Notes: generated from the letters alone by a model not told the origin. A DNA stretch of 27,017 nucleotides from a virus (UHGV-0430895), one strand, 5' to 3'; positions 12,759 to 19,008 are shown, counted from the first letter of the stretch. Program-made: numbers and translations.

Positions 12759-13106
12759 TTACTTTAATAATTTCAGCGTTTTTACATCCAGTTCAACACT
12801 GTTCAGGTCTTTATCAAGTTCACCCTCGATTATTACCTTATCTTCCGGAGACACATTCTGCCCGGCCCATACACTTTCATCGATATCCGTGACAATGGTT
12901 CCGCTACTGTCGCGAAACTCATAACGATCATCACCCAATTTTTTAACGATGTGCCCTTCAAGGATAACCCATGCCTCGTCCTTCTGTTCTTTTGCCTGCA
13001 CTACTGTTGTTGAACGCTCTGCTTCAGACCCCAGAAAACCTCCCTGTTGTGCAAAAACGCCAAAAGACACGCAGGAAAAAAGGGCTGCGATTAATACTTT
13101 TTTCAT
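12759..13106 (-). CDS. YgiW/YdeI-family periplasmic OB-fold (BOF) protein
   Basis: Signal peptide MKKVLIAALFSCVSFGVFA, then QGGF...VVQAKEQKDEAWVILEGHIVKKLGDDRYEFRDSSGTI...VELDVK, matching the YgiW family pattern. Confidence 0.75.
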   Translation of the reverse strand: MKKVLIAALFSCVSFGVFAQQGGFLGSEAERSTTVVQAKEQKDEAWVILEGHIVKKLGDDRYEFRDSSGTIVTDIDESVWAGQNVSPEDKVIIEGELDKDLNSVELDVKTLKLLK

Positions 13107-13223
13107 TATCGTCCTCTTCAAGAAATTAACATGAACACTTGCATTGCAGCATATAAAATGCGGGTGCGTTGAGGATGCCTGACACATCAGAGGTGGCGAG
13201 GGATTTCTCCCTCGCCTGGTCTC

Positions 13224-13379
13224 TTACTTCTCAGATTCGTAGTCTACGAAGACAGCGACCTCCGTCTGGCCGGTTCGGATTCGTACCTCGCAGAGGTCTT
13301 TCCTCGTTACCAGTGCCGTCACTATGACGGTTAAACAGATGACAATCAGGGCGATTAACATCGCCTTTTGCTGCTTCAT
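13224..13379 (-). CDS. hokD: Hok/Gef-family type I toxin (HokD/RelF-like)
   Basis: MKQQKAMLIALIVICLTVIVTALVTRKDLCEVRIRTGQTEVAVF... is essentially the HokD sequence as I recall it. The upstream region is strongly structured (9-bp inverted repeat CTGTCTGCC/GGCAGACAG). Confidence 0.8.
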   Translation of the reverse strand: MKQQKAMLIALIVICLTVIVTALVTRKDLCEVRIRTGQTEVAVFVDYESEK

Positions 13380-13624
13380 AGCCTGCTTCTCCTTGCCTTT
13401 CGGCACGTAAGAGGCTAACCTACATGTGCAAAGCATGAAATTGGCCTCAGATTAATGTTAAGCGTCTTGCCGGACGCGTAATGTTAACTGGGGCTTTTCT
13501 CTGTCTGCCTTACGGTGGCATGCCCGAGGCAGACAGCCTCAAGCACCCGCAGCAATTCTACTTAACTCTCGCTTTACCGCAAACCGTTTTTACCCGATAT
13601 GGGAATCCCCATATCGCAATGAAA

Positions 13625-13729
13625 TCAGTTTCCCATCCGATCCATCAAAAACACAACCAGGCAGTAAACGCCCACAACAGAAATAACGGCCAGCGCGCCT
13701 TCCATTGCCAGTGAAAGATCATCCGACAT
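13625..13729 (-). CDS. Candidate 34-aa hydrophobic peptide (below ORF-track cutoff)
   Basis: Strong SD AAGGAGGG, 5-nt spacer, ATG. Translation MSDDLSLAMEGALAVISVVGVYCLVVFLMDRMGN. Confidence 0.45.
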   Translation of the reverse strand: MSDDLSLAMEGALAVISVVGVYCLVVFLMDRMGN

Positions 13730-13844
13730 ATTCCCTCCTTTGGTGTGAATCCCGGCGAACGTTTTTACTCCCACCGACAAATAACATATACTAAAAAAGC
13801 GATAGCCATAGCAACGCCTGTAATTGCAAAGGCTTCAGGCCAGT

Positions 13845-14150
13845 TCATCGTAAAACATCCTCCACACTTATCAGTCCATTTCGCTTCAGATAGTCCATCG
13901 CCTTATCCGGTAATTTGCAGTCCAACTTCGCTTTCTTCAGATGCCTGGCTAACTGCTTTACCAGCATGGTTAACTCGTAGACCGAACGTTGATACTCCAC
14001 TGGTTTGTATTCATGCAATTTACCAACTGGCTCTGCTTCCAGCAATGCCAGTGCAATCCGTGCCAGTTCCATTTGTTCGCCACGGGTAAGTCCGTTATCA
14101 AGCGGATTTTTAATGAATAATTCGATACGTTCTTTGGTAATAGAATTCAT
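13845..14150 (-). CDS. 101-aa hypothetical protein
   Basis: ORF packed tightly (1-nt gap) after the 14152..14400 ORF; no family recognised. Confidence 0.45.
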   Translation of the reverse strand: MNSITKERIELFIKNPLDNGLTRGEQMELARIALALLEAEPVGKLHEYKPVEYQRSVYELTMLVKQLARHLKKAKLDCKLPDKAMDYLKRNGLISVEDVLR

Positions 14151-18048: not shown

Positions 18049-18144
18049 ACCTTCCTCGGTTTAGTGTTTTTTTTGAGTTTAGTGTTTAATAAACCATTAA
18101 GTCAAGTATTTGCTTGTTTAGTGATTACTAAAGATAATTACCGC
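18049..18144. promoter_or_regulatory. Divergent immunity promoter/operator region with three TTTAGTG operator motifs
   Basis: TTGCTT-17 nt-GATAAT promoter whose spacer is the palindrome TTTAGTGATTACTAAA (18117..18132); the -10 ends 6 nt before the repressor ATG, suggesting a leaderless mRNA like lambda cI from PRM. Opposite-strand -35 TTGACT faces the Cro-like gene. Confidence 0.6.
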
Positions 18145-18516
18145 ATGCAAAAAAAAGAAATTCGCCGTTTACGTCTCAAGGAGTGGTTTAAAGATAAAAC
18201 TCTGCCACCCAAAGAGAAGAGCTACCTATCTCAACTAATGAGCGGGAGAGCCTCGTTTGGAGAAAAGGCTGCCAGAAGAATAGAGCAAACATACGGGATG
18301 CCGGAAGGGTATTTGGATGCGGAATACGCAGAACAACCGGAGGTTTCTCCGCCACATGCAGGGTTAACGTCTAATCAACTGGAATTATTGCAGATTTTTT
18401 CAGCCTTCCCTGAGGATGAGCAACGCCAGATAATCAGCGAGTTAAAACAGAAAAAAGAATCAATGGAAGATCTCATAGCGAGATGGATTGCGGCGCAAAA
18501 ATGCCGCCGCGCCTAA
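18145..18516 (+). CDS. dicA: DicA-like prophage repressor (XRE HTH, no S24 peptidase domain)
   Basis: HTH (LSQLMSGRASFGEKAARRIEQTYGMPEGYL) and a C-terminal LTSNQLELLQIFSAFPEDEQ motif paralleling DicA's LSPKELELLELFNALPESEQ. Confidence 0.7.
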   Translation: MQKKEIRRLRLKEWFKDKTLPPKEKSYLSQLMSGRASFGEKAARRIEQTYGMPEGYLDAEYAEQPEVSPPHAGLTSNQLELLQIFSAFPEDEQRQIISELKQKKESMEDLIARWIAAQKCRRA

Positions 18517-18536
18517 GTTATAAAACCGGAGGAAAC

Positions 18537-18728
18537 ATGAATAGAGCCCTTTCACCAATGGTTTCTGAGTTTGAAACCATTGAACAAGAAAACAGTTACA
18601 ACGAATGGCTGCGTGCGAAAGTAGCAACGAGCCTTGCAGATCCGCGCCCAGCAATTCCCCATGACGAAGTTGAGCGCAGAATGGCAGAACGCTTTGCTAA
18701 AATGCGCAAGGAACGGAGCAAGCAGTAA
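18537..18728 (+). CDS. ParD-like type II antitoxin
   Basis: 63 aa with GGAGG RBS; C-terminal LADPRPAIPHDEVERRMAERFAKMRKE resembles ParD-family antitoxin tails. Its stop is 1 nt from the toxin start. Confidence 0.6.
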   Translation: MNRALSPMVSEFETIEQENSYNEWLRAKVATSLADPRPAIPHDEVERRMAERFAKMRKERSKQ

Positions 18729-18729
18729 A

Positions 18730-19008
18730 ATGTTACCCGTGTTATGGCTTGAAAGCGCAGATACCGACCTAGATGATATAACTAGTTATATTGCTCGTTT
18801 CGACATAGATGCGGCAGAACGCTTATGGCAGCGATTAAGGGGTTGTGTGCTGCCGTTATCCGAACATCCGTATTTATACCCACCAAGCGACAGAGTACCT
18901 GGCTTGCGTGAGATTGTGGCCCACCCTAACTATATAATTCTATACCGCGTAACAACATCAAGCGTTGAAGTAGTAAACGTGATCCACGCAAGACGCCAGT
19001 TTCCCTAA
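18730..19008 (+). CDS. ParE/RelE-superfamily type II toxin
   Basis: 92 aa; C-terminal YIILYRVTTSSVEVVNVIHARRQF matches the ParE signature (YRI...V.I.RV.H.R). Confidence 0.7.
   Translation: MLPVLWLESADTDLDDITSYIARFDIDAAERLWQRLRGCVLPLSEHPYLYPPSDRVPGLREIVAHPNYIILYRVTTSSVEVVNVIHARRQFP

What the first reader, a model, noticed from the sequence alone, without database searches (positions are those of the whole stretch)
13224..13729. Hok-family toxin gene preceded by a separate SD-driven 34-aa hydrophobic peptide instead of relBE
The hok ORF matches HokD, but its upstream neighbour is not relE/relB as in the K-12 relBEF operon as I recall it; it is a 34-aa hydrophobic ORF with a near-consensus SD. 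The hok leader retains long inverted repeats. It is unclear whether a sok-like antisense RNA exists here, so hok control may be non-canonical, or the peptide may be a second type I toxin.
Basis: partly seen in the sequence, partly recalled or inferred. Interest (0 to 1): 0.55.

Follow-up and report, generated by a model that had tools for sequence, protein, structure and literature searches.

The report
Ordinary hok/sok plus tiny membrane-protein gene
The toxin gene is a complete, ordinary hok/mok/sok toxin-antitoxin module, with a toxin identical to the already characterised HokW of Shiga-toxin phages, and the 34-codon gene in front of it is a real but uncharacterised tiny membrane-protein gene carried on a 175-bp cassette, not evidence of unusual hok control.

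Summary
All features are on the minus strand: a 51-aa Hok ORF (13379..13224), a 34-aa hydrophobic ORF with an AGGAGG Shine-Dalgarno (13729..13625), and no relBE. The interpretation mostly fails.

The hok locus is a full canonical hok/mok/sok module.
- Its leader scores 117 bits on Rfam's sok model (gathering score 59).
- It is collinear with the annotated mokW/hokW/sokW of phage 933W.
- Hok is 100% identical to HokW and Mok is 69/70.
- The sok -10 (TAACCT), which was mutated experimentally in Sp5, is intact.
- The 386-nt mRNA pairs its 5' end with its 3' end (z = -8).

The 34-aa ORF is a genuine gene. dN/dS is about 0.35, polymorphism is biased to third codon positions across 32 alleles, and none of 132 copies has an internal stop. 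It belongs to a tiny family seen almost only in E. coli sequences (29-34 aa, ..YCLxVxLMDRL..) with no Pfam, PHROG, NCBIfam or PADLOC match.

It lies on a 175-bp cassette flanked by 9-bp direct repeats, between a 27-aa ORF and the hok promoter. It nearly always sits next to hok (110 of 116 copies), but most hok loci lack it. I found no conserved antisense promoter and no structured mRNA, so a second type I toxin is not supported. Interest is low to moderate.

The parts
13224..13379 (-). hok toxin CDS (51 aa, including stop); protein identical to HokW of 933W/Sp5
   Evidence: Pfam HOK_GEF 4e-23; PHROG 251 1e-32; alignment to hokW
13224..13436 (-). mok ORF (70 aa), in frame with hok and sharing its stop codon, as annotated for mokW
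   Evidence: ORF list; 69/70 identical to MokW; the mokW/hokW annotation shares its stop
13374..13548 (-). hok mRNA leader, from the inferred +1 (GGGUGCUUGAGG, tac element) to the hok AUG; contains the Sok target
   Evidence: Rfam RF01794, 117.2 bits against a gathering score of 59, E = 1.6e-27, model positions 1-157
13555..13582 (-). hok promoter-like site: -35 TTGCGG (13582..13577), 16-nt spacer, -10 TAGAAT (13560..13555)
   Evidence: Read from the sequence. The -10 and downstream bases are invariant in six loci. The homologous TTGGCG-17-TAGAAT is flagged in Tritos. Not flagged in the window by the 9-of-12 scan.
13393..13421 (+). sok promoter: -35 TTGCCT (13393-13398), 17-nt spacer, -10 TAACCT (13416-13421)
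   Evidence: The -10 is identical to the one mutated (TAGGTTAG to CCGGCTCG, primers YO-421/422) to silence sokW in PMC8621323; sequence
13428..13498 (+). Sok-like antisense RNA (about 71 nt): single-stranded 5' tail, long hairpin, U tract
   Evidence: Coordinates transferred from the sokW annotation of 933W through a gap-free alignment; fold -30.2 kcal/mol, z = -4.7
13162..13174 (-). fbi element (CCUCAACGCACCC) at the 3' end of hok mRNA, pairing with the 5' tac element
   Evidence: The MFE fold of 13548..13163 pairs the 5' end with the 3' end: -164.6 kcal/mol, z = -8.0; conserved in 933W, Tritos and K-12
13625..13729 (-). 34-aa micro-protein gene (type A allele): acidic N-terminus, one transmembrane-length hydrophobic stretch, C-terminal ..YCLVVFLMDRMGN
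   Evidence: dN/dS about 0.35 against type B; pS 0.19 against pN 0.03-0.06 within type A; polymorphic sites by codon position [5,1,10] and [7,3,15], no internal stop in 132 copies; profile search finds only its own tiny family
13734..13739 (-). Shine-Dalgarno AGGAGG of the 34-aa ORF
   Evidence: Sequence; an independent AGGAGG plus GTG start in type B; an ATG-to-GTG start variant in 4 copies
13585..13768 (.). 175-bp cassette carrying the 34-aa gene, bounded by 9-bp direct repeats CGTTTTTAC (13585-13593 and 13760-13768)
   Evidence: the repeat finder family D2; otherwise collinear loci (L012, L007, 933W) lack exactly this segment
13595..13616 (.). 22-bp palindrome CGATATGGGGATTCCCATATCG between the peptide stop and the hok -35
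   Evidence: also upstream of hok promoters in L021, L023, L037, L041 and L060
13765..13848 (-). 27-aa hydrophobic ORF (MNWPEAF..VYVICRWE) whose ATG overlaps the stop of the upstream 101-aa gene (ATGA)

Best explanation
There are two separate things side by side in the rightward early operon of a Rac/Qin-like lambdoid prophage.

(1) A complete hok/mok/sok type I toxin-antitoxin module of the hokW-sokW kind.
- hok mRNA starts at about 13548.
- It is held inactive by pairing of its 5' end (tac) with its 3' end (fbi).
- Hok translation depends on the overlapping mok frame.
- Translation is blocked by the roughly 71-nt antisense Sok RNA made from a promoter inside the mok 5' region.
- Shown by sequence: all of these elements are present.
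- Shown for the identical HokW protein and the 92% identical locus in the literature: toxicity, the antitoxin activity of Sok, and help with phage release.
- Inferred: that the same behaviour holds here.

(2) A 175-bp cassette inserted between a 27-aa ORF and the hok promoter.
- It encodes a 34-aa protein with one hydrophobic, transmembrane-length segment.
- Inferred: it is translated from its own strong Shine-Dalgarno on the early-operon transcript. Its diverged type B relative (29-30 aa) has its own promoter-like site.
- I take it to be an independent moron-like small inner-membrane protein that travels with hok because it sits 45-79 nt from the hok start.
- It is neither a regulator of hok nor a toxin with its own RNA antitoxin.
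- Its cellular role is not known. A membrane-level accessory function during lysogeny or lytic growth is a guess.
For: hok module:
- Rfam leader hit of 117 bits.
- Collinearity with the annotated mokW/hokW/sokW and with Tritos, from the -10 through fbi.
- Mok 69/70 and Hok 51/51 identical to 933W.
- sokW -10 conserved.
- tac-fbi fold with z = -8 and Sok-like fold with z = -4.7.
- hokW-sokW is experimentally a type I TA system (PMC8621323).
- K-12 homology starts only at the hok Shine-Dalgarno.

Peptide is a real gene:
- dN/dS is about 0.35, and both other frames hold stops.
- Third-position bias is [12,4,25] over 32 alleles, with no internal stop in 132 copies.
- Shine-Dalgarno and start are kept in both allele types.
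- PGAP calls it.
- It is present in 674 of 5426 complete E. coli genomes.

Peptide is separate from hok:
- 93 of 105 hok loci with a canonical leader show no peptide motif. Two of those 93, L003 and L132, carry motif-escaping LMDH alleles.
- Collinear loci lack just the repeat-flanked cassette.
- Relics with a broken ORF sit next to an intact hok module.
- 6 copies have no hok.

Context genes: YdaS/YdaT, an HTH-domain (PF13730) ORF at the replication-initiator position, DnaC-like, DUF1627, DUF977 ... BOF, DUF968, RusA, Q, all on the same strand.
Against: - The peptide-to-hok linkage is very strong: 110 of 116 assessable copies. It holds for two alleles that diverged past dS = 1 and lie in different flanking contexts. 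That is more than a purely incidental neighbour would suggest.
- No expression, localisation or toxicity data exist for the peptide.
- The transmembrane assignment is read from the sequence only.
- The type B promoter is only an 8-of-12 consensus match. It is inferred from conserved hexamers with a diverged spacer.
- The window's own hok and sok promoters fall below the 9-of-12 scan threshold.
Confidence: 0.65

Rival explanations
1. The 34-aa peptide is a functional partner of Hok. It could modulate Hok insertion or toxicity (co-toxin, antiholin-like or immunity peptide). Alternatively its transcription or translation could feed into the hok promoter and leader, making the pair one extended module.
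For: - 110 of 116 peptide copies have the hok leader 38-79 nt downstream.
- Both deeply diverged alleles keep this position in different contexts.
- There is no terminator between the peptide stop and the hok +1.
- HokW acts at the inner membrane during lysis.
Against: - 93 of 105 hok loci with a canonical leader show no peptide motif, including the experimentally functional hokW-sokW of 933W/Sp5.
- Relics show the ORF destroyed next to an intact hok module.
- 6 copies exist without hok, and their homology ends exactly at the hok -35.
- A gap of 45-79 nt is short enough for linkage without selection.
Confidence: 0.15
2. The 34-aa peptide is a second, new type I toxin repressed by its own antisense or trans-acting small RNA.
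For: - It is small and hydrophobic and lies next to a type I TA module.
- Type B has an autonomous promoter-like site.
- Weak antisense promoter-like matches exist: window 13705-13732 (+) and Tritos 2116-2087 (-).
Against: - The antisense matches are not conserved between allele types, or even within type B (sequences). They are no more numerous than shuffles give.
- No terminator is available for such an RNA.
- The mRNA region is unstructured (z = -1.0 and -1.5), against z = -8 for hok.
- The Shine-Dalgarno is strong and is not occluded in the centroid fold.
- The peptide has net negative charge.
- It matches no toxin family in Pfam, NCBIfam, PHROGs or PADLOC.
Confidence: 0.08
3. The 34-aa ORF is not translated. 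The segment is only non-coding DNA upstream of the hok promoter (UP region, palindrome, recombination boundary), and the ORF is incidental.
For: - There is no family and no experimental evidence.
- Annotators disagree on its length (34-74 aa) and even on strand: HannyBb has reverse-strand calls.
- Short ORFs abound by chance.
Against: - Third-position polymorphism bias and dN/dS of 0.15-0.4.
- Synonymous codon changes at identical residues between types A and B.
- The frame is open in all 132 copies, while the other frames carry stops.
- Shine-Dalgarno plus start are conserved, including an ATG-to-GTG variant.
Confidence: 0.07

Closest known systems
hokW-sokW (mokW/hokW/sokW) of Stx2 phage 933W / Sakai prophage Sp5
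   Same: - The Hok protein is identical and Mok is 69/70.
- DNA is 91.6% identical from the hok promoter to the start of the downstream BOF (YgiW-like) gene (window 13100-13592).
- The sok -10 (TAACCT) is the same.
- The leader architecture, tac and fbi are the same.
- The same BOF (YgiW-like) gene follows downstream.
   Different: - Here an extra 175-bp cassette with the 34-aa gene sits between the 27-aa ORF and the hok promoter.
- Several substitutions lie in the 5' hairpin loop and in the Sok 5'-tail/mok-start region.
- The module lies in the early-right operon of a Rac/Qin-like prophage. In 933W it lies near the end of the record.
relB-relE-hokD (relBEF) of the K-12 Qin prophage
   Same: - It occupies the same slot in the prophage map, between the replication region and DUF968/Q.
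- Hok is 92% identical.
- The 3' fbi region is retained.
   Different: - K-12 lacks the whole leader, mok and sok. Homology begins about 15 nt before the hok ATG, and relBE occupies the upstream position.
- The window has no relBE there. Its only ParE-family (PF05016) ORF is about 5 kb away, and BLASTP gives no alignment with RelE.
hok/sok of plasmid R1
   Same: The regulatory design is the same: a mok-coupled hok, antisense Sok, and 5'-3' fold-back. These are captured by the Rfam model and the fold.
   Different: The toxin is distant: HokW and R1 Hok are 44% identical according to PMC8621323. The setting is a prophage, not a plasmid.
Small hydrophobic type I toxins of enterobacteria (Ldr, TisB, ShoB, Ibs, ZorO, DinQ; recalled from memory)
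   Same: Size (about 30 aa) and a single hydrophobic helix.
   Different: - No sequence match to any of them.
- No conserved antisense gene.
- No structured, translation-blocking mRNA.
- Acidic rather than cationic ends.
Phage 'moron' cassettes encoding small membrane proteins (for example HK97 gp15; recalled from memory, not tested)
   Same: - A short autonomous insert that is present or absent between otherwise collinear phages.
- A single-pass hydrophobic product.
- Its own promoter-like site in type B.
   Different: No sequence similarity and no known phenotype. Type A has no recognisable promoter or terminator of its own.

Membership tests
[quoted passage not shown] | Hok/Gef-family toxin ORF of about 50 aa | tested here: met
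   PF01848 E = 4.3e-23; identical to HokW
[quoted passage not shown] | Overlapping mok reading frame that starts in the Sok target region | tested here: met
   70-aa ORF from 13436, in frame with hok as in the mokW annotation; 69/70 identical
[quoted passage not shown] | Cis-encoded antisense Sok RNA gene with its own promoter opposite the leader | tested here: met
   -10 TAACCT identical to the experimentally mutated sokW -10; coordinates transferred from the sokW annotation; tail-hairpin-U-tract fold. Transcription itself was not testable.
[quoted passage not shown] | Conserved structured leader and long-range 5' tac / 3' fbi pairing | tested here: met
   Rfam RF01794, 117 bits, full length; the MFE fold pairs the 5' and 3' ends, z = -8.0
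[quoted passage not shown] | Toxicity of Hok and neutralisation by Sok | not testable with these tools
   Shown for the identical HokW protein and its sokW in PMC8621323
relBEF operon arrangement (K-12 Qin) | relB and relE directly upstream of and co-transcribed with hokD, which has no mok or sok | tested here: not met
   The upstream sequence is the hok leader and small ORFs; K-12 homology starts at the hok Shine-Dalgarno; nothing RelE-like lies nearby
Type I toxin (for the 34-aa peptide) | Small hydrophobic membrane peptide | tested here: met
   A run of about 20 hydrophobic residues (ALAVISVVGVYCLVVFLM), read from the sequence
Type I toxin (for the 34-aa peptide) | Cognate antisense or adjacent small-RNA antitoxin gene | tested here: inconclusive
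   Only weak antisense promoter-like matches, not conserved between alleles and at the frequency of shuffles; no terminator. A trans-acting sRNA cannot be excluded.
Type I toxin (for the 34-aa peptide) | Highly structured mRNA that limits translation | tested here: not met
   z = -1.0 (window) and -1.5 (Tritos), against -8.0 for hok mRNA
Type I toxin (for the 34-aa peptide) | Sequence membership in a described toxin family | tested here: not met
   No hit in Pfam, PHROGs, NCBIfam or PADLOC
Type I toxin (for the 34-aa peptide) | Toxicity on expression | not testable with these tools
   Needs inducible expression
Phage moron-like small membrane-protein cassette (for the 34-aa peptide) | Discrete insert present or absent between otherwise collinear phage genomes | tested here: met
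   L012, L007 and 933W lack exactly the 175-bp segment, which is flanked by the 9-bp repeat CGTTTTTAC
Phage moron-like small membrane-protein cassette (for the 34-aa peptide) | Protein-coding under purifying selection | tested here: met
Phage moron-like small membrane-protein cassette (for the 34-aa peptide) | Own promoter and terminator allowing expression from the prophage | tested here: inconclusive
   Type B: TTGAAK-17-CATATT conserved with a diverged spacer, but only 8 of 12 consensus matches. Type A (the window): none found on the coding strand.

The most novel reading that the evidence does not exclude
The micro-protein is not a passenger but an accessory component of prophage hok modules. 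It could be a membrane partner that tunes Hok-mediated membrane damage or lysis timing. Alternatively it could be a translated upstream element that couples early-operon read-through to hok/sok. That would explain why two alleles diverged beyond dS = 1 both sit 45-79 nt from the hok start in 110 of 116 copies.
Probability: 0.13. Interest if true: 0.55.

Novelty: new member of a known kind. Interest (0 to 1): 0.27.

Why it matters
The hok part adds nothing new. It is another copy of hokW-sokW, already shown to be a working type I TA system that helps Sp5 phage release. It does make clear that the K-12 relBE-hokD arrangement is the truncated exception.

The modest new point is the micro-protein family. 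It is 29-34 aa long, evolutionarily constrained, and seen almost only in E. coli sequences. It is present in about 12% of complete E. coli genomes, often in several copies and including O157:H7. It sits almost always at the hok promoter, is unnamed in every family library searched, and its sequence did not appear in the papers searched.

If it modulates Hok or membrane events during induction, it would bear on how prophage TA modules affect lysis and Stx-phage release. If not, it is one more small prophage membrane protein awaiting a phenotype.

Tried and rejected
I re-ran it with the 51-aa TTG-extended ORF.
- Pfam, PHROGs, NCBIfam and PADLOC gave no family for the 34-aa or 27-aa peptides.
- Hok homology of the peptide was considered because of the shared ..V.CL.V.. 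stretch. I rejected it: there is no HOK_GEF hit at E <= 1.
- A literature search for the peptide sequences found nothing. The Pas-sRNA preprint only cites the hokW paper.
- The weak second Rfam 'sok' hit on the plus strand (16.9 bits, E = 0.68) and the CsrC and Hrs1 hits are chance or hairpin-only matches.
- Antisense promoter candidates in the window (13705-13732 and 13764-13792, plus strand) and in Tritos (2116-2087) were rejected because they are not conserved.
- The idea that hok-less type B loci keep a decayed hok leader was rejected. Homology ends at the hok -35, and only an 11-mer with E = 0.65 follows.
- The palindrome as an intrinsic terminator was rejected: no U tract follows it on either strand.
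- The 77-aa plus-strand ORF 13481-13714 overlaps the hok leader and the peptide gene, and I judged it spurious.
- The ParE-family ORF was compared with RelE, and BLASTP gave no alignment.

Full report
**What is in the sequence.** Everything relevant is on the minus strand.
- The Hok ORF runs 13379..13224 (51 aa). It is extended in frame to a 70-aa ORF starting at 13436.
- The 34-aa ORF runs 13729..13625. AAAGGAGGGAAT precedes its ATG.
- A 27-aa hydrophobic ORF runs 13848..13765. Its ATG overlaps the TGA of the upstream 101-aa gene (ATGA).
- Hok matches Pfam HOK_GEF at 4e-23 and PHROG 251 'MokW-like host killing' at 1e-32. The small peptides match nothing.
- The observation as written is therefore correct.

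**Genomic context.** The same strand carries these genes in order:
1. YdaS- and YdaT-like regulators.
2. An HTH-domain (PF13730) ORF at the replication-initiator position, then a DnaC/IstB-like ATPase.
3. DUF1627, DUF977, an 82-aa gene and the 101-aa gene.
4. The 27-aa and 34-aa ORFs, then hok.
5. A BOF/YgiW protein, DUF968, RusA and a Q-type antiterminator.

This is the rightward early operon of a Rac/Qin-like lambdoid prophage. A 98% identical locus in E. coli A30 lies next to ompW and is annotated the same way, with the 34-aa ORF called 'hypothetical protein' WP_077779993.1.

**The hok locus is canonical.**
- Rfam's sok family is modelled on the hok-sense strand and ends at the hok AUG. It matches 13548..13374 over its full length at 117.2 bits against a gathering score of 59 (E = 1.6e-27).
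- Phage 933W carries annotated mokW, hokW and sokW. It is 91.6% identical to window 13100..13592.
- A four-way alignment shows gap-free collinearity of the window, 933W and phage Tritos. It runs from the -10 TAGAAT through GGGTGCTTGAGG (tac), the Sok region, mok, hok and CCTCAACGCACCC (fbi).
- Mok is 69/70 identical and Hok 51/51 identical to 933W.
- Takada et al. (PMC8621323) showed three things: HokW is toxic; sokW RNA expressed from its own promoter counteracts it; and the locus promotes Sp5 release.
- Their promoter-less mutant changes TAGGTTAG to CCGGCTCG (primers YO-421/422). That defines the sok -10 as TAACCT on the antisense strand.
- The window has exactly this at 13416-13421 (+), with TTGCCT 17 nt upstream.
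- Transferring the sokW coordinates gives Sok at 13428..13498 (+). This folds as a 5' single-stranded tail, a long hairpin and a U tract (z = -4.7).
- The 386-nt hok mRNA (13548..13163) folds with its 5' end paired to its 3' end (-164.6 kcal/mol, z = -8.0).

**K-12 is the exception.** In MG1655 homology to these loci begins only about 15 nt before the hokD ATG. Everything upstream is relE. The relBEF arrangement is a truncated hok joined to relBE. The window shows the complete form. A recent survey reports hok enriched in prophages and does not mention upstream small ORFs.

**The 34-aa ORF is a real gene.**
- tblastn found diverged copies (39-46% identity over 28 aa) in the Escherichia phages Tritos, Evi, mEp460_ev081 and HannyBb. 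In the two inspected, Tritos and HannyBb, the copy lies directly upstream of hok. In Tritos this 'type B' allele is MVLVLKCALAIAAVMAIYCLAVVLMDRLSD, with AGGAGG and a GTG start.
- Nei-Gojobori counts give pS about 0.19 against pN 0.03-0.06 within type A.
- Between types A and B, dS is about 1.1 and dN about 0.4, so omega is about 0.35. The other two frames hold stops.
- A degenerate DNA motif retrieved 120 IMG/VR contigs.
- Over 32 distinct alleles in 132 copies, polymorphic sites by codon position are [5,1,10] for type A and [7,3,15] for type B. There is no internal stop. By my own calculation, chi-square on the pooled [12,4,25] is about 16.
- Four copies carry GTG in place of the ATG.
- A profile search of 1.84 billion representatives found 13 proteins, all of this family and 20-73 aa long, including fragments. 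Some are type-B-like 29-30-aa forms.
- The named hits are all E. coli.
- Type A occurs in 674 of 5426 complete E. coli genomes, 1469 copies in all, always annotated 'hypothetical protein'.

**How the peptide relates to hok.**
- Of 105 hok loci with a canonical leader, a motif screen found the peptide upstream in about ten. Two more Tritos-type loci, L003 and L132, carry LMDH alleles that escape the motif.
- 24 loci have the 27-aa ORF abutting the hok promoter, including 933W. The others have unrelated sequence.
- Loci that share the window's upstream gene (L012) lack exactly the 175 bp between two copies of CGTTTTTAC, at 13585-13593 and 13760-13768. The 34-aa gene is therefore a small cassette, inserted there or deleted from there.
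- Relics of the ORF's 3' end survive upstream of intact hok modules (L034 cluster, L008, L048, L060).
- In the other direction the linkage is strong. Of 116 assessable peptide copies, 110 have the hok leader 38-79 nt downstream. At least two of these (L170, L196) have hok cut by inserted, unrelated sequence at its Shine-Dalgarno.
- Six type B copies have no hok, and their homology ends at the hok -35.
- So hok does not need the peptide, and the peptide can persist without hok, yet they are rarely separated.

**Is it a second type I toxin?** I found no support.
- The peptide mRNA region is no more structured than shuffles (z = -1.0 and -1.5).
- Antisense promoter-like matches occur at chance frequency and are not conserved between or within allele types. 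No terminator is available for an antisense RNA.
- The peptide is acidic and matches no toxin family.
- Type B has a sense-strand promoter-like site, TTGAAK-17-CATATT. Its hexamers and start region are conserved across 80%-identical loci while the spacer diverges. This suggests autonomous expression.
- Type A in the window has none and is presumably read from the early-operon transcript.
- Toxicity cannot be judged without experiment.

**Verdict.** The finding is a known, complete hokW-sokW-type module plus an unrecognised but ordinary-looking micro-membrane-protein cassette. The 'non-canonical control' reading is refuted. The 'conserved separate peptide' part is upheld. The tight peptide-hok linkage is the only feature that remains unexplained.

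Noticed in passing
window 13765-13848 (-); L002 (933W) about 2424-2504; L007 and L012 clusters: A 27-aa hydrophobic ORF family (M[TN]WPEAF...VY.ICRW.). Its ATG overlaps the stop of the upstream gene (ATGA) behind at least three different upstream genes. It abuts the hok promoter in 24 of 105 loci, including 933W, where it is unannotated. The hokW-sokW clone of Takada et al. starts at its ATG region (primer YO-432). Codon-position bias is weak: [10,9,17] over 12 alleles, with 44 of 46 copies intact.
   Followed up: partly
window 13595-13616: A near-perfect 22-bp palindrome (CGATATGGGGATTCCCATATCG) lies between the peptide stop and the hok -35. No U tract follows it on either strand. The same palindrome sits upstream of hok promoters without an intact peptide ORF in L021, L023, L037, L041 and L060. 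Its function is unknown (protein-binding site, RNA 3' hairpin or recombination boundary).
   Followed up: partly
window 18483-19008 (+), next to the repressor-like ORF 18064-18516 (+): A ParE-family (PF05016) toxin ORF (124 aa as listed, 5e-16) is preceded by a small overlapping ORF (PHROG 3936). It is probably a type II TA pair beside the immunity region. BLASTP gives no alignment with K-12 RelE.
   Followed up: partly
L034 cluster (E. coli, Shigella flexneri, E. albertii), L008, L048, L060: Relics of the micro-protein ORF's 3' end (..LMDRLSD*, GHLSD*, GN*) lie directly upstream of intact hok promoters. This shows that recombination junctions fall inside the ORF.
   Followed up: partly
L170 and L196 (IMG/VR contigs): hok homology breaks at the hok Shine-Dalgarno (..GGCAAGGAGA|TGTATGGGTCCACC..), and unrelated sequence that looks like an insertion element follows. 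The type A peptide gene and the hok leader stay intact.
   Followed up: no
window about 13239-13241 (-), Tyr47 codon of hok: The Tyr codon lies in GAC-UAC-GAA. This is the UACG context reported as a TadA A-to-I editing site that recodes Tyr to Cys in hokB, hokC, hokD and hokE (introduction of bioRxiv 10.1101/2025.08.07.668861). Editing here is only inferred.
   Followed up: no
L073 cluster (11 loci, several on contigs of 90-99 kb) and L051 cluster (6 loci): Other, unrelated hydrophobic ORF tails end just upstream of hok promoters (..IFFGAVWPLGIMFAATFLLMWIF.., ..GVFMAVMCIEYWR). Small membrane ORFs next to hok may be a recurrent pattern or may be chance.
   Followed up: no
window 13374-13548: Rfam family 'sok' (RF01794) matches the hok-sense strand and ends at the hok AUG. 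A hit therefore marks the hok leader, not the strand of the Sok RNA itself.
   Followed up: yes
L003 (phage HannyBb) 1908-2197: The deposited annotation places two reverse-strand 'hypothetical proteins' over the micro-protein gene and the hok leader. These are probably miscalls.
   Followed up: no
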